Positions 36,001 to 44,056 of a stretch of DNA of 64,000 bases are shown here, one piece after another. Origin of the DNA: Escherichia coli (GTDB lineage Bacteria; Pseudomonadota; Gammaproteobacteria; Enterobacterales; Enterobacteriaceae); the NCBI RefSeq assembly GCF_048403405.1, contig NZ_CP183131.1; one strand, given 5' to 3'. The number at the start of each line of letters is the position of its first letter. Position 1 is the stretch's first letter. Made by a program: the position numbers.

Positions 36001-39000
36001 CTGAATTTCGAAGGAATGCATATTTATCAAGGCTTTGATTATGCTTTTTGAAGTACTGACGTAGAATCTAGGTGTTAGCCACTTTAATGTCAGGAAGCTT
36101 AAGCTCTGTTAGTGTTTTGGCTATTCTCTCTCCTCTTGGAAGACTGGTTGAAAGAGCCAGGAATATTTCCAATAACCCATTAAGTCAATCCCTCTACACT
36201 GGGCGCACCGATGAGTTTGGCCAAATAGAGTTTGCTTTACGAATGATGCAAGCTGAAACAGGCGCCATAGTAGGTCGCATAGGTGATGCATCAAATCGGC
36301 TTAGCGAACACACCCGAGGCCTACTAAAGGATATTGAGTCAAGCAATGTACTTACAGTTGAGCAGCAGGCAGAGACAGATCAAATAGCAACGGCAGTAAA
36401 CCAAATGGTGGCAAGCATTCAAGAGGTTGCGAGCAATGCACAGCATGCTGCAGATGCGGCCGGAAGAGCAGACACTGAGACGGCATCTGGCCAGCGTCTG
36501 GTAGCCCACACAAGCCAGTCAATCACTGCCCTTGAAGGTGAAATTAGGCAAGCCACTCAGGTTATTCATGAGCTTGAAGGTCAAAGTAACGAGATATCAA
36601 AAGTTCTTGACGTTATACGAGGGATCGCCGAGCAAACGAATTTGTTGGCACTCAACGCAGCAATTGAGGCCGCGCGTGCTGGTGAGCAGGGGCGTGGTTT
36701 TGCTGTTGTCGCCGATGAGGTTCGCAGTCTTGCTGCTCGCACACAGCAATCGACAACGGATATTCAAAGCATGATCAGCGCTCTACAAGAGCGAGCGCAA
36801 TCCGCTGTTACAGTCATGGAGCAAAGTAGTCGGCAAGCGCACACGAGTGTAGCTCACGCAGAGGAAGCAGCTACAGCTCTTGATGGAATTGGCCAACGCG
36901 TTAACGAAATTACCGACATGAACGCGCAAATAGCGACTGCGGTCGAGCAGCAGGGAGCAGTAAGTGAAGACATAAACCGCAGTATTATCAATATACGCGA
37001 TGCTGCTGATACCAATGTACAGACCGGGCAGAATAATTTGCAAAGTGCGAAATCTGTCGCTCAGTTAACTAGCGCTCTGAGCGAACTGGCAAAACAGTTT
37101 TGGGAAAAACGAGGATAACGCTTTTCAGTATCTCGACAGGGATAACTTACTTTACCATCGGTTATCCCTTTTAGCCGCACAAATTTTAGCCATGGCTTTT
37201 CAGGAAGTCAGGGCTATCAGAATGGCCTTAGAAAGCCTAGTCAAAGAGCTGTCACGAGAACACCGTTAGCTTAGCGTACGATTTTTTCCGAATTCTGCGG
37301 TTCCCCCTCCAGGGAAGGATTCGATAGTGACTCCACCGAAGGTGCCAAGGATTTCCGATGCCGCTTTATCAGATCGAGTTTTGCGTTGTTCTGAGGCGTC
37401 AAAGTTACGAAGCAATTTGAGCTGAACATCCTTATCCTGGAGCACGATCAGGGGCATTGGCGCGGTAACGGTTTTGAGTACCCCTGCGGCCATGACGTTT
37501 GCCACCGGTTGAACCTTTACTTCCCTTCGCTCCCGGAGATAAGGCTCCGGGGTGCTGGCGATCTTCTGGATAAGCTGCTCCAGGGGAAGTTGATAGTCTG
37601 GCCCAGATCGCTCCAGCTCCTCTCTGATGCGTTGCAAAAGCTCCTCTTTTACGGGCTTCTTCAAGGAGTCCTTCCGTTGCCAGGTGAAGCGGATAGAGTC
37701 GATGTCGCCATTGGTATAGCACCGAATTTGTCTGTAAAGGTGGAGAGTCATGACACCAGGGCAGTCCGCTCGAAGTGCTTCAAACCTCTCTTGCCTGGTG
37801 GGGTACGTCGAGATAATGAACTCCTCGATACCAGCTTTGGCCGCGTTGATGCGTTCAACCGTCGCCGCAATTTCGTCAGCTACACCAATCCTGGAAGGGG
37901 AGAACCAGAGTACCCCCACGGTGCGCCTGGCAGACTTCTGCGAATAGTCTGGGTTGATGTGAAGATCTCTGTAGCTGTGCGCTGCCAGCTCAAGAGCTTC
38001 GCGCCCAGTTTGTTCAGTTACGACAATCTTGTTGACGGGCTCGTTCTCCATTCCTTTTCCGGTAGGAGGGATGGCCGCAACTTTTGCGTACCGTGGCGGT
38101 AGTCGTTTGATAAGAGAGGACAGGTTCGTTAAGTCGCGGCACATGGCCGAGAATTGTTCTGATATGAAGTTTTTAGCCATGCTGCCGCCTATGTGTGGGT
38201 TTGTTCTAACAGTTCATTGGTTACATAGTAGACAGATTTAGACCATCATGCAACGAGGGGGAGGGGCAAGAATACGCCTCCGCTTCGCGTCGGCGGGTGC
38301 CCTGTTTGACCTTCGTGTGTGAGATTAGATTGAGAAAGAGAGAGAAAGAGAGAAAAAGAGAGAAAGAAGAAAAGCGCGGGGCAAGCCAGAAATGTGGCTG
38401 AGGGGGACTGCTGGGGTGGGGCTGGCACCCTCTATACCCCACTTTGCATGATGGTCTAACTTTGTGGTTATAGGACGACTTTTAGAGTGCCTAGATTTGC
38501 TCGATTAGGACAAATTTCGGTCCATCCACGCTGATTGGCGTAGCAGCGCGATGGCATCAGAAGGGGTAACTTTCCATGCGTTGGAAAGCTGGCGAACTGC
38601 GAAGACTGCGAGCTCCATTCGGTCGTCATCATTGATGAAATTCTGGAGCTGGTTTCCTCGCTCACTAAGGATGATCGCAACACCGGCCTTGCCGTTGTTG
38701 TAAACCGCAAAGCTCTTATTCTTCGCGTCGCCGTGATAGGAACCCTCAGCCTTGCTACGCAAACCAAAGAGAACGCTGCAAAACGCCGTCAGTTCGCCGC
38801 GAGTGAGCTGCACCGTGATCTTGCTTTTCCAGTCTGGGCTGGACCCCGATGCCCTGATCGGCGCAATCTCGATGCTGACCGTAGGATATTCACCTCTGGT
38901 TAGCGTGTGTTGCACATTCAGGCCGGTGCGTTTCGCGGGGTCCTTCTGCCAGTCTGAGAAAAATTTGAGACTTTCGCCGTAGGATTGTTCTGTCATTCCA

Positions 39001-42000: not shown

Positions 42001-44056
42001 CGCGCTCCTTGTAAAAAGTGGGCATTCAGCACCACCTATCCTATTCCAAAAACTCTACTTTTTCAAAGATACATTTTAATAAGTAGAACAACAGCAAGAG
42101 GAACTCAAATTTATTTACCGTAATTATCATAATTACGGTAATACGGTAATTTTACAGATTTGGATGGAATGGTATAAGATGTCTCGCTGGAACATACTTG
42201 CTGAAAAAACGCTTAACAACGATAGTGAAAACATCATGTACAGGTGCGAGAGATAATATGTATAAGAGCCTTGAAGATCTGATGGCGGGTATTTACGAGA
42301 TGGCAGCGCCAGATGGCATCATCTGTAACGAGGTTTCCAAATTCCTTGCGGCCAACCAGGTCAAGCCGGAAGACATAAGCTCTGGGATCTGGTTTTTCCT
42401 GTGGCTGAAATCAGCTCCCAAGGATGCGAAGCCAATCCAAAAAGAAATCCCCGGATTTGGAGTTGTTCTCAACATGCCGACTTATGGCGGAACGCTCAAC
42501 GAAGCAATCACAGGGTTGATCGAGAACGAGTGCCGTCAAATAGAGCTCGCTGAGGGACATCCGAGCCTTGAGGCTTGGGTTGAATCAGTATTAGCCGGTC
42601 GAGATGACGGAGAGGAAAATGAAGCTGCGGCCAATATCGTGGATCTGCTTAATGGGTGTCACGACCTACTGGATACAGCAATAATCAATTACCTTTTTAA
42701 GGTGGGAAAAATCAACGAGCAAGAGATTTTGTCGCTCATCTATTATGGAGAGCTATGTGACCACTCTCTTGTCGGTACGCCTTTTTCAACGTTACATATC
42801 CCGAGTGAAAATAACGTCCACGAACGTAACATCATCCCCATTAAAAAAGGAGCCAGTTAGGCTCCTTTTTGTTACTCAGGGTTTGCTTTGAGAAACAACT
42901 TCATTCCAAGTATGCAGCACCTTCGATAGGTGCTGATGCTTTCTGGTGAAGTCCTTATCATCCAAGAGTGCTTTAAATGGCGCGTTCAGGTCACTGCATG
43001 TGACGTTCTTGCCGATCACAGACAGGGTATCCTGGAGTGATCCACCAGCAGCATCAAGCCCCATTCTATCGACGGTCTCACTACTCACCATTGCCTGGAC
43101 AACATTGGTGAATGCCTTTGAGTTGAGCTGCTCAACGCTCAGGGCTGTATTGCATTTCTGCTCAACCGCTTGCTTGTACTGGATGGTGTACTTTGCAGTG
43201 ATAGGTGACATGGTGTTCATCGCAAGTATGTATGCGTCTACCTCACTGGTCGGTAATGTCGCGGCATAGACTGACGAGCATGATGCGGCTGCGGCCATTA
43301 TCAAAGTTATTACCTTCTTATTCTTCATTTCTCTGAAATCCCCCTTTAAAATATGGAGCTACAACTCATTTGTACCAATCATAATACTATTGATTTCCAA
43401 AAGTATCTCTCTCTACTGACTCTATGATGGCTCGCCTTCCAAACACTTGGCCGCTGGCGGCGGCTGGGCCAACGCCAGAGCCTGATCCACACTATCATCC
43501 GCCTGAAAAAAATCTCATTACCTCTGACGGATAAAGAAACAGATTTCCCCCTTTGGCAAAAAACAGATACCAAACAGAAAAAGCCACAGAAAAAACACCT
43601 GCAACACACACTTCAAATCTATTTCTTGCAGAGAAATACTTGTAGTGCTTTTTTTCGTATCTCGGGGCTCTCATTTTGACTAGATTTTTCAATGTCAACC
43701 AAAGAAAGATAACCCCAGTAGGAAGGATAACTATCACAACCCCAAAGAAATAAATTGTGTATATAATAAAATCAAACCAGTTATTGATTTCCATAAGCCG
43801 TCCCCAATGCTGCGCCAATAGCAGAACCATGTGAGCCGTATTTAATCCCTGGATTCCTCATTAGCTCTCTTTAACTTTAATATTTTCCTTAGATTTAAGT
43901 ATCCATAGATTCCTGAGAACACTCCATACCCCCCCCAAACACCAACGGACAGATATAAGGCGAATTTGCTTAGAGGCCCATTCACATAATTTAATAAAGC
44001 GAACACTGCAATTCCTATAAAGGCTCCAGCTAAGGAAGGTGCGAACAAGTTCCTGA

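What the first reader, a model, noticed from the sequence alone, without database searches (positions are those of the whole stretch)
38505..42035. Tyrosine recombinase embedded in an operon with a Cys-X5-Arg phosphatase-like protein and a DEDD exonuclease, with the palindrome inside int
The recombinase is preceded by three small genes, one with the phosphatase P-loop signature VHCYYGESRSG, and followed by a DnaQ-like exonuclease and another unknown gene, all tightly spaced on the minus strand. This is not a typical phage integrase or Xer context. Two copies of the TTTCACATGTGAAA-type palindrome lie within the int coding sequence, so the palindrome may double as a recombination or regulatory site.
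Basis: partly seen in the sequence, partly recalled or inferred. Interest (0 to 1): 0.55.

Follow-up and report, generated by a model that had tools for sequence, protein, structure and literature searches.

The report
IncC plasmid recombinase operon carrying parS
This is a conserved backbone segment of IncC multidrug-resistance plasmids: the palindrome inside the recombinase gene is the plasmid's published partition site (parS), and the recombinase most likely acts on a different, published site (RecHS) just upstream of the operon.

Summary
In detail: six tightly spaced minus-strand ORFs, an HCX5RS motif, a DEDDh exonuclease, and one exact plus one 1-mismatch palindrome copy inside int.

The window is IncC plasmid backbone. 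TTTCACATGTGAAA is the published core of the IncC parS site bound by ParB (PMC10954446). That paper lists a copy inside 'R55_130/xerC', which is this int. The two copies lie in different reading frames. They are missing from int homologues on non-A/C plasmids. So they are neither a peptide by-product nor needed by Int.

The real recombination site is RecHS (PMC5587640), a 14-6-14 inverted repeat at 42054-42087, outside the finding's coordinates. It overlaps the predicted operon promoter. Its recombinase was reported as unidentified.

All 16 distinct plasmid loci sampled with int at 47% identity or more carry RecHS upstream of int in the same orientation. This holds even where the phosphatase-like and exonuclease genes are absent or decayed. 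I therefore assign Int to RecHS as an inference: a Cre/loxP- or ResD/rfsF-like multimer-resolution and cointegration module.

The CX5R protein has a dual-specificity-phosphatase fold, but its link to int is confined to A/C- and pAQU-type plasmids. The exonuclease neighbours int only in IncC.

Mostly known biology; modest interest.

The parts
42054..42087 (.). RecHS core (IR2): 14-bp imperfect inverted arms around a 6-bp spacer. Plus strand: TCTACTTTTTCAAA gataca TTTTAATAAGTAGA. This is the likely Int recombination site.
   Evidence: Found as a 14-nt inverted repeat, 86% complementary, 6 nt between arms. It matches the description in PMC5587640. It maps exactly onto R55 119170-119203, inside the 56-bp minimal active fragment 119169-119224.
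42033..42088 (.). Equivalent of the 56-bp minimal RecHS fragment (R55 119169-119224) shown experimentally to recombine.
   Evidence: Coordinates from PMC5587640, mapped through locus L026.
42038..42066 (-). Promoter-like site for the int cluster. The -35 TTGAAA (42066-42061) lies inside the int-proximal RecHS arm, followed by a 17-nt spacer and -10 TAGGAT (42043-42038).
   Evidence: the count of such sites is not above shuffles. The same -35/17 nt/TAnnnT layout occurs in nearly all of the homologous loci inspected; the -35 is lost in the diverged Vibrio L010 arm.
41715..41996 (-). 93-aa hypothetical protein (R55_128), first gene of the cluster. The longer 106-aa ORF reaches 42035.
   Evidence: AAGGAG lies 7 nt before the GTG start. 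No Pfam match. Its deletion did not affect conjugation (PMC5587640).
41409..41708 (-). 99-aa Cys-rich hypothetical ORF. It is absent from IncA.
   Evidence: tblastn finds 995 plasmid records, 50 of them at 60-80% identity. No Pfam match.
40880..41416 (-). 178-aa CX5R protein with a dual-specificity-phosphatase-like fold (H100-C101-x5-R107-S108).
   Evidence: Weak Pfam DSPc, PTP-SAK and Y_phosphatase3 hits. The motif is conserved in the family. A profile search of PDB returns only DSPs, best PTPMT1 at E=3.4e-5. The AF2 model has pLDDT 93.4. Foldseek top hits are almost all DUSP/PTP structures, prob about 0.99, TM 0.4-0.5.
39867..40877 (-). int: Xer-like tyrosine recombinase, 336 aa (R55_130/'xerC'). 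Proposed RecHS recombinase.
   Evidence: NCBIfam XerC and XerD hits fall below the equivalog cut-offs. Best PDB match is XerD 1a0p, E=3.6e-21. Catalytic motifs are conserved in 9 homologues. RecHS co-occurs with int.
40385..40398 (.). Exact parS core TTTCACATGTGAAA inside int (codons F-F-T-C-E-S). This is the copy published as 'R55_130/xerC'.
   Evidence: PMC10954446.
40830..40843 (.). Decayed parS core TTTCGCATGTGAAA inside int codons 12-17 (V-S-H-A-K-V). It is a perfect core in IncA.
38993..39862 (-). DEDDh (DnaQ-like) 3'-5' exonuclease, 289 aa. It neighbours int only in IncC.
   Evidence: Motifs DTE, FNSSFD and HSAATD are visible in the translation. The family occurs in 3571 plasmid records; the two contexts I inspected, an IncI-gamma/K1 plasmid (~50% identity) and a Pseudomonas megaplasmid (57%), have no adjacent int.
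38505..38996 (-). 163-aa hypothetical protein, last gene of the cluster.
   Evidence: No hit in NCBIfam, PADLOC, PHROGs or Pfam.
42115..42141 (.). IR1: 13-bp perfect inverted repeat with a 1-nt spacer, 27 bp from IR2. Reported as dispensable for recombination.
   Evidence: PMC5587640.

Best explanation
The region is conserved IncC (IncA/C2) plasmid backbone. Two independent DNA-protein systems overlap here.

(1) Recombination module. Int, a Xer-like tyrosine recombinase, most likely acts on RecHS. RecHS is a loxP/rfsF-style site with 14-bp inverted arms and a 6-bp spacer. It sits at the promoter of Int's own transcription unit, at 42054-42087. Int would resolve plasmid multimers and, reversibly, fuse RecHS-bearing replicons. 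Because the -35 box lies inside the int-proximal arm, Int binding probably also represses the operon.

(2) Partition sites. The TTTCACATGTGAAA palindromes inside int are centromere (parS) cores for the plasmid's KorB-type ParB. One is intact and one is decayed. They are two of about 14 copies scattered over the backbone, and they merely happen to lie in coding sequence.

The DSP-like gene, the two small genes, the DEDDh exonuclease and the 163-aa gene are co-transcribed passengers or accessories. None of them is needed for the Int-RecHS pairing to persist.

Shown by others: RecHS recombination that is RecA-independent and needs the plasmid, and ParB binding to other parS copies. Shown here: the identity and position of the sites, and int-RecHS co-occurrence. 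Inferred: that Int is the RecHS enzyme, autoregulation, and ParB occupancy of the int copy.
For: Plasmid identity: 100% identity to IncC plasmids.

parS:
- PMC10954446 gives this exact 14-mer as the core of 14 R55 sites, including one in R55_130/xerC. ParB bound three tested sites in EMSA.
- The window holds 5 exact copies.
- The two int copies are in different reading frames, FFTCES and VSHAKV.
- The core is perfect in IncC, IncA and an Aeromonas A/C-like plasmid. It is replaced by unrelated codons in IncY, IncFIB, Cronobacter, Vibrio and Enterobacter homologues.

RecHS:
- The window IR2 and IR1 geometry equals the published description.
- It maps onto the 56-bp active fragment of R55.
- The paper states that the recombinase is plasmid-encoded and 'not yet identified'.

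Int-RecHS link:
- In 16 of 16 distinct plasmid loci with int at 47-100% identity, a RecHS with 0-2 arm mismatches (5 in Vibrio) lies upstream of int in the same orientation. The next-best match in each locus has at least 9 mismatches.
- The two loci with int below 45% identity show only background matches.
- In IncY, IncFIB, IncFII and IncFIA plasmids the site is 53-87 bp from int with no other gene between.
- Genus counts of int-positive and RecHS-positive plasmids nearly coincide.
- The catalytic residues are intact.
- The promoter layout is conserved.
Against: - No experiment links Int to RecHS. The assignment rests on adjacency and co-occurrence only.
- 14 of 152 A/C plasmids lack RecHS, so it is not essential for maintenance (PMC5587640).
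- ParB was not tested on the int-internal copy. ParB did not bind the 14-bp core alone, and this copy has the consensus flank on one side only (TCTT-core-GTGA). The IncA int copies lack the GT flank altogether. Occupancy is therefore uncertain.
- The promoter prediction is a weak consensus match, not above shuffles.
- About 440 Klebsiella plasmids carry a RecHS-like sequence without a nearby int, in the one case I inspected. That copy has a 1-nt deletion in one arm.
Confidence: 0.82

Rival explanations
1. One reading: the palindromes inside int are Int's own recombination substrate, or double as one.
For: Two related copies lie inside int. The palindrome is strongly over-represented in the window.
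Against: - The motif is the published ParB-binding parS core. It has about 14 copies across the backbone, which would drive deletions and inversions if Int recombined them.
- It is a perfect 14-bp palindrome with no asymmetric spacer.
- It is absent from int homologues on non-A/C plasmids, which all keep RecHS.
- The experimentally mapped RecA-independent recombination site is RecHS, not this motif.
Confidence: 0.03
2. The six genes form one functional system, with phosphatase, recombinase and exonuclease working together. One version: the CX5R enzyme or the exonuclease processes Int-DNA 3'-phosphotyrosyl intermediates. Another: the cluster is a defence or anti-defence module.
For: - Spacing is tight or overlapping and there is no internal terminator.
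- The DSP-int adjacency is conserved in IncC, IncA, an Aeromonas plasmid and Vibrio pVPS43 at 59% int identity.
- The exonuclease hits the PADLOC candidate PDC-S48.
Against: - The exonuclease and the 163-aa gene are replaced by HTH+HipA or other genes in IncA and Aeromonas.
- The DSP gene has lost its P-loop in pESI. It is absent next to int in IncY, IncFIB, IncFII and Cronobacter plasmids.
- DSP homologues at 49-56% identity sit beside unrelated genes: a methyltransferase, umuDC and parA-korB.
- Exonuclease homologues at 50-57% identity sit in IncI-gamma/K1 and Pseudomonas plasmids without an adjacent int.
- No PADLOC hit for any of the other five proteins.
Confidence: 0.08
3. RecHS is recombined by another plasmid-encoded enzyme. 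Int has a different role, for example integrating the plasmid into a chromosome or inverting DNA.
For: The 2017 paper left the recombinase unidentified. IncC plasmids also carry transposon resolvases and integron integrases.
Against: - The RecHS-int pair travels together across unrelated backbones that share no other IncC gene nearby.
- The site architecture (14-6-14) is that of a tyrosine-recombinase core site.
- Transposon and integron recombinases vary among IncC plasmids, whereas RecHS activity was seen with both R55 and R16a.
Confidence: 0.07

Closest known systems
IncC/IncA parS-ParB (parAB-053) partition system (Muranyi et al., NAR 2024, PMC10954446)
   Same: The 14-bp core TTTCACATGTGAAA is identical. 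Copies are scattered over the backbone. One copy is explicitly reported inside R55_130/xerC, which is the int copy at 40385.
   Different: This copy has the consensus flank (GT) on one side only. ParB binding to it was not tested individually. The second copy, at 40830, has a core mismatch and is not among the published 14.
RecHS recombination hot spot of IncA/C plasmids (Hegyi et al., Sci Rep 2017, PMC5587640)
   Same: The window segment 42033-42088 is the same sequence as the 56-bp active fragment of R55. IR2 (14-6-14) and IR1 (13-1-13, 27 bp away) match the description.
   Different: The paper did not identify the recombinase. Here Int is assigned by comparative genomics. RecHS+int is also found on pESI, IncY, IncFIA/FIB/FII, Cronobacter and Vibrio plasmids.
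Simple-site plasmid resolution systems: Cre/loxP of P1 and ResD/rfsF of F
   Same: A tyrosine recombinase gene lies beside a site made of two inverted arms and a short spacer. Recombination runs in both directions. The site overlaps the recombinase promoter, as established for F ResD, which is both repressor and resolvase.
   Different: Int shares only the catalytic box with F ResD. F's RepFIB-linked integrase is not a homologue, and F has no RecHS. Arm and spacer sequences are unrelated.
XerC/XerD-dif/cer
   Same: These are Int's best sequence relatives. The central region is also 6 bp.
   Different: Int scores far below the XerC and XerD equivalog cut-offs (151 and 134 bits against 335 and 330). 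It is a single recombinase with near-symmetric 14-bp arms, not a heterodimer on asymmetric 11-bp arms.
KorB-OB global regulation in IncP RK2
   Same: IncC ParB carries a KorB domain, and its sites are dispersed, some near promoters (PMC10954446). That leaves room for a regulatory effect of the int-internal copy.
   Different: No regulatory effect has been shown for this copy. It lies about 480 nt inside the fourth gene of the cluster.

Membership tests
IncC/IncA parS (ParB site) | Fully conserved 14-bp core TTTCACATGTGAAA | tested here: met
   The copy at 40385-40398 is exact. The copy at 40830-40843 fails with 1 mismatch; it is perfect in IncA.
IncC/IncA parS (ParB site) | AAAC/GTTT flanks, especially GT next to the core, which ParB binding requires | tested here: inconclusive
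   TCTT-core-GTGA: GT is present on one side only. The IncA copies inside int lack GT.
IncC/IncA parS (ParB site) | Multiple copies dispersed over the A/C backbone, and absent from unrelated backbones | tested here: met
   5 exact copies in the 64-kb window. No core in int on the pESI, IncY, IncFIB, Cronobacter, Vibrio or Enterobacter loci.
IncC/IncA parS (ParB site) | Bound by IncC ParB | not testable with these tools
   EMSA was published for three other copies only.
Tyrosine recombinase | Catalytic R-K-H-R-H-Y set | tested here: met
   R187, K214, H282, R285, H308 and Y317 are conserved in 9 homologues.
XerC / XerD orthologue | NCBIfam equivalog score above the curated cut-off | tested here: not met
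   151.2 against 335.15 bits (XerC); 133.5 against 329.6 bits (XerD).
Simple-site plasmid resolution system (Cre/loxP, ResD/rfsF type) | Site made of two inverted arms around a 6-8 bp spacer, adjacent to the recombinase gene | tested here: met
   14-6-14 at 42054-42087. It lies upstream of int in 16 of 16 distinct loci.
Simple-site plasmid resolution system (Cre/loxP, ResD/rfsF type) | RecA-independent recombination between two site copies that depends on the element's recombinase | not testable with these tools
   Published for RecHS with R16a supplied in trans. The enzyme was not identified.
Simple-site plasmid resolution system (Cre/loxP, ResD/rfsF type) | Contributes to plasmid stability by resolving multimers | not tested
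   14 of 152 A/C plasmids lack RecHS.
Cys-based dual-specificity / protein-tyrosine phosphatase | HCX5R(S/T) P-loop | tested here: met
   H100-C101-YYGES-R107-S108. R107 and S108 are invariant across the 21 aligned sequences; H100 and C101 are nearly invariant (20 of 21; the exception, P0045, lacks the H/C segment).
Cys-based dual-specificity / protein-tyrosine phosphatase | DSP fold | tested here: met
   The AF2 model has pLDDT 93.4. Foldseek top hits are almost all DUSP/PTP structures, prob about 0.99, but TM is only 0.4-0.5. A PDB profile search returns only DSPs.
Cys-based dual-specificity / protein-tyrosine phosphatase | Significant Pfam DSPc match | tested here: not met
   E=0.007 for this protein. 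Four relatives carry a precomputed PF00782 hit.
DEDDh (DnaQ-like) exonuclease | Exo I DxE, Exo II D and Exo III Hx4D motifs, plus profile matches | tested here: met
   DTE, FNSSFD and HSAATD are in the translation. NCBIfam DEDDh/epsilon hits at E about 1e-17 fall below the equivalog cut-offs. PADLOC DEDDh hit at 1.4e-28.

The most novel reading that the evidence does not exclude
RecHS+Int is a portable module shared by otherwise unrelated plasmid families: IncC, IncA, pESI, IncY, IncFIA/FIB/FII, and Cronobacter and Vibrio plasmids. Its arms are almost identical everywhere, and only a few spacer variants exist. Plasmids with matching spacers could then be fused site-specifically and carried by the conjugative partner. 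For example, TGTATC occurs in IncC, pESI and two IncF plasmids. This would make Int/RecHS a cross-family driver of hybrid resistance plasmids rather than only a resolvase. A secondary possibility is that the conserved parS copies inside int let ParB tune the operon.
Probability: 0.3. Interest if true: 0.55.

Novelty: already known. Interest (0 to 1): 0.3.

Why it matters
IncC plasmids are major carriers of multidrug resistance. Knowing that the palindrome is parS and not a recombination site prevents a wrong experiment. Assigning Int to RecHS closes a gap left open in 2017. It also shows that the same site and enzyme sit on many other clinically important plasmid families. That would give a testable route for site-specific plasmid fusion and for 'conduction' of non-mobilizable plasmids. 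None of this is a new kind of system.

Tried and rejected
- PADLOC, PHROGs, NCBIfam and Pfam gave nothing informative for the 163-aa, 93/106-aa and 99-aa proteins or the neighbouring 220-aa protein.
- Rfam found nothing credible in 36-44 kb.
- No terminator-like sites in the cluster. The promoter scan was not above shuffles.
- F plasmid: ResD shares only the catalytic box with Int. The RepFIB-linked integrase is not a homologue, and F has no RecHS.
- The proteins downstream of the exonuclease homologues in an IncI and a Pseudomonas plasmid are not homologues of the 163-aa protein, so there is no conserved exo-partner pair.
- Literature searches for a follow-up naming the RecHS recombinase found none. 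The library misses subscription journals, so prior publication cannot be excluded.
- I considered the peptide-motif explanation for the palindrome. I rejected it because the two copies are in different frames and the amino acids are not conserved in distant homologues.
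Full report
**1. Observation**

The cluster is as described. Six ORFs lie on the minus strand:

| ORF | Coordinates | Size |
|---|---|---|
| first small gene | 41715-42035 (RefSeq start at 41996) | 106 aa (93 aa from 41996) |
| second small gene | 41409-41708 | 99 aa |
| CX5R protein (VHCYYGESRSG) | 40880-41416 | 178 aa |
| int | 39867-40877 | 336 aa |
| exonuclease | 38993-39862 | 289 aa |
| last gene | 38505-38996 | 163 aa |

Gaps or overlaps between neighbours are +6, -8, +2, +4 and -4 nt. 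A 324-nt gap follows before a Tus-like ter gene. No terminator-like hairpin lies inside the cluster.

The palindrome TTTCACATGTGAAA is exact at 40385-40398. A copy with one mismatch (TTTCGCATGTGAAA) is at 40830-40843. Both are inside int. The window holds four further exact copies, at 1561, 2640, 12830 and 19558. That makes 6 matches at up to 2 mismatches against 0.37 expected, and no shuffle reached 6. Every CACATGTG octamer in the window belongs to the full 14-mer. The motif is therefore a selected element, not chance.

**2. What the DNA is**

The 5-kb segment is 100% identical to many IncC (IncA/C2) conjugative plasmids of Klebsiella, E. coli, Salmonella and others. One example is pKP22-5, typed IncC, MOBH, MPF_F. 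The neighbouring genes (rhs, ter, a kfrA-like gene, a uvrD-like helicase, traFHG) are the standard IncC backbone.

**3. The palindrome is parS**

A full-text search for the 14-mer found one paper, Muranyi et al., NAR 2024 (PMC10954446). It makes these points:
- The plasmid's KorB-type ParB bound the three tested sites in EMSA. These were R55_174, the parA promoter, and DR2 of SGI1 (a genomic island that IncC plasmids mobilise).
- A 4-bp central insertion abolished binding. The bare 14-bp core was not bound.
- Four copies lie inside ORFs, one of them 'R55_130/xerC'.

R55_130 is this int. Only the 40385 copy has a perfect core, so that is the published copy.

- The two copies are read in different frames: TTT TTC ACA TGT GAA AGT gives FFTCES, and GTT TCA CAT GCG AAA GTA gives VSHAKV.
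- At the first position the core is perfect in IncC, in two IncA plasmids and in an Aeromonas A/C-like plasmid. It has one mismatch in pESI. In the IncY, Cronobacter, Vibrio and Enterobacter homologues it is replaced by unrelated codons (FAVCEA, FSLCEQ, FKVCDE, FEACET).
- The second position is a perfect core in IncA. It has one mismatch in IncC and pESI and two in Aeromonas. It is deleted or unrelated elsewhere.

So the palindrome follows the A/C backbone, and hence its ParB, not the recombinase. The IncC copy at 40830 is a decayed parS.

One caveat applies. The 40385 copy has the required GT flank on one side only, and the IncA copies have none. ParB occupancy of the intragenic copies is therefore inferred, not shown.

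**4. The real recombination site lies just outside the finding**

[quoted passage not shown] - A 13-bp perfect repeat with a 1-bp spacer (IR1) lies 27 bp away and is dispensable.
- Recombination between two copies is RecA-independent and reversible.
- It needs the IncA/C plasmid in trans, and the cognate recombinase 'has not yet been identified'.

In the window I find exactly this geometry:
- IR2 at 42054-42067 / 42074-42087: TCTACTTTTTCAAA gataca TTTTAATAAGTAGA.
- IR1 at 42115-42127 / 42129-42141.
- 27 bp between them.

Reading pR55 directly, the published minimal fragment 119169-119224 is the same sequence as window 42088-42033. RecHS therefore lies 58 bp upstream of the first gene of the int cluster (R55_128, window 41715-41996).

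The only minus-strand promoter-like site in the region has its -35 (TTGAAA, 42066-42061) inside the int-proximal arm and its -10 (TAGGAT) at 42043-42038. By itself this is a weak consensus match. However, the same -35 / 17 nt / TAnnnT layout and a conserved leader are present in nearly all homologous loci inspected; the -35 is lost in the diverged Vibrio arm.

**5. Assigning Int to RecHS (inference)**

Int has the full tyrosine-recombinase catalytic set: R187, K214, H282, R285, H308 and Y317. It is Xer-like but well below the XerC and XerD cut-offs.

tblastn finds int homologues in 1917 plasmid records. A 50-nt RecHS query finds 2159. Genus counts nearly coincide, with one exception:

| Genus | int records | RecHS records |
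|---|---|---|
| Salmonella | 381 | 377 |
| Escherichia | 296 | 287 |
| Enterobacter | 267 | 267 |
| Citrobacter | 116 | 115 |
| Cronobacter | 34 | 35 |
| Klebsiella | 382 | 823 |

I fetched 18 distinct loci spanning 39-100% Int identity and scored the best RecHS-arm match in each:
- All 16 loci with Int at 47% identity or more have a RecHS with 0-2 arm mismatches (5 in Vibrio pVPS43). It is always upstream of int and in the same orientation. The second-best match per locus has at least 9 mismatches.
- The two loci below 45% identity show only background (9 and 12 mismatches).
- In IncY, IncFIA, IncFIB, IncFII and Cronobacter plasmids the site is 53-87 bp from the start of int with nothing between.
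- In IncC, IncA, Aeromonas, pESI and Vibrio plasmids, small genes lie between the site and int.
- The arms stay nearly invariant while Int falls to 47-60% identity. The spacer varies: TGTATC, TGACGC/TGACAC, TGATGC, TGTACC, TGTACG, TGTCTA.

This pattern is what a recombinase and its core site should show. It is why I give 0.82 to Int being the RecHS enzyme, a Cre/loxP- or ResD/rfsF-type resolution and cointegration module. It is not a relative of F ResD beyond the catalytic box. F has neither this Int nor RecHS.

**6. The other genes**

*CX5R protein.*
- It has only weak Pfam DSPc, PTP-SAK and Y_phosphatase3 hits (E 0.007-0.017).
- Its family of 45 proteins conserves HC(Y/F)xGxSRS.
- A family profile hits only dual-specificity phosphatases in the PDB, with PTPMT1 best at E=3.4e-5.
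- A confident AF2 model (pLDDT 93.4) retrieves almost only DUSP/PTP structures, at modest TM of 0.4-0.5.
- NCBI names the Vibrio homologue a DSP-family protein.

The phosphatase-like reading is therefore right. Its tie to int is not general:
- It directly precedes int in IncC, IncA, Aeromonas and Vibrio plasmids.
- In pESI it is fused to the first small gene and has lost the P-loop.
- It is absent next to int in the IncF, IncY and Cronobacter loci.
- Relatives at 49-56% identity sit beside a methyltransferase, umuDC or parA-korB instead.

*Exonuclease.* It has all DEDDh motifs. Together with the 163-aa gene it follows int only in IncC. IncA and Aeromonas have HTH+HipA and other genes there. 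Its family occurs in 3571 plasmid records, and the two other contexts I inspected, an IncI-gamma/K1 plasmid and a Pseudomonas megaplasmid, have no adjacent int.

*99-aa ORF.* It is real but specific to the IncC and Vibrio lineages.

Overall, the 'operon' is best seen as a RecHS-promoter-driven transcription unit that has picked up different passengers in different lineages.

**7. Verdict**

- It is wrong on the key point, since the palindrome is parS and not Int's substrate.
- Both DNA elements are published.
- The increment here is the comparative assignment of Int to RecHS, and the finding that this pair is shared by many plasmid families. As far as the searchable literature shows, neither has been reported.
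- Interest is modest.

Noticed in passing
window 38232-38260 and 38437-38465: A 29-nt inverted repeat, 86% complementary, with an exact 16-mer TTAGACCATCATGCAA on both arms. These are the only two copies of the 16-mer in the window. The arms flank a CT-rich tract (38332-38373) in the gap between the 163-aa gene and the Tus-like ter gene. They could be a pair of inverted Ter sites for the plasmid Tus homologue, or an operator.
   Followed up: partly
L006 (NZ_MH917122.1) 2076-2109; about 440 Klebsiella plasmid records: An orphan RecHS-like site lies next to the IncFII(K) repA. It has the same spacer (TGTACG) as the Enterobacter and Klebsiella IncF int loci, a 1-nt deletion in one arm, and no int within about 2 kb. 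This accounts for the Klebsiella excess of RecHS hits over int hits.
   Followed up: partly
window 42115-42151: IR1 (13-1-13 perfect inverted repeat) plus tandem TACGGTAA units. They abut a plus-strand promoter-like site (42151-42180) for the divergent 220-aa gene (42198-42860, R55_196). This may be an operator for an unknown regulator. It was reported as dispensable for RecHS recombination.
   Followed up: no
L002 (pESI-like S. Infantis megaplasmid NZ_CP016407.1) 3470-5014: pESI carries RecHS with the same spacer as IncC and an 82%-identical int. The first small gene and the DSP gene are fused into a 158-aa remnant that lacks the P-loop. This suggests acquisition from an A/C-type plasmid followed by decay of the accessory genes.
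   Followed up: partly
L020 (Alcaligenes faecalis contig) 4001-7123: A DSP-like homologue (56% identity) lies directly upstream of parA, a KorB-domain parB and a 158-aa gene. This layout resembles IncC parAB-053.
   Followed up: no
window 36072-37118 (+) and 44102-45082 (+): A 348-aa ORF resembling the C-terminal signalling domain of a methyl-accepting chemotaxis protein lies next to ter. An IS5-family transposase ORF sits on the rhs side. Both appear to be insertions relative to pKP22-5.
   Followed up: no
window 1561, 2640, 12830, 19558: Four further exact parS cores. The one at 19558 lies between traF and the UvrD-like helicase gene. The one at 12830 is upstream of a 120-aa ORF next to traG. 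The ones at 1561 and 2640 lie at or inside the 3' ends of two minus-strand ORFs. These positions are consistent with the published list.
   Followed up: partly
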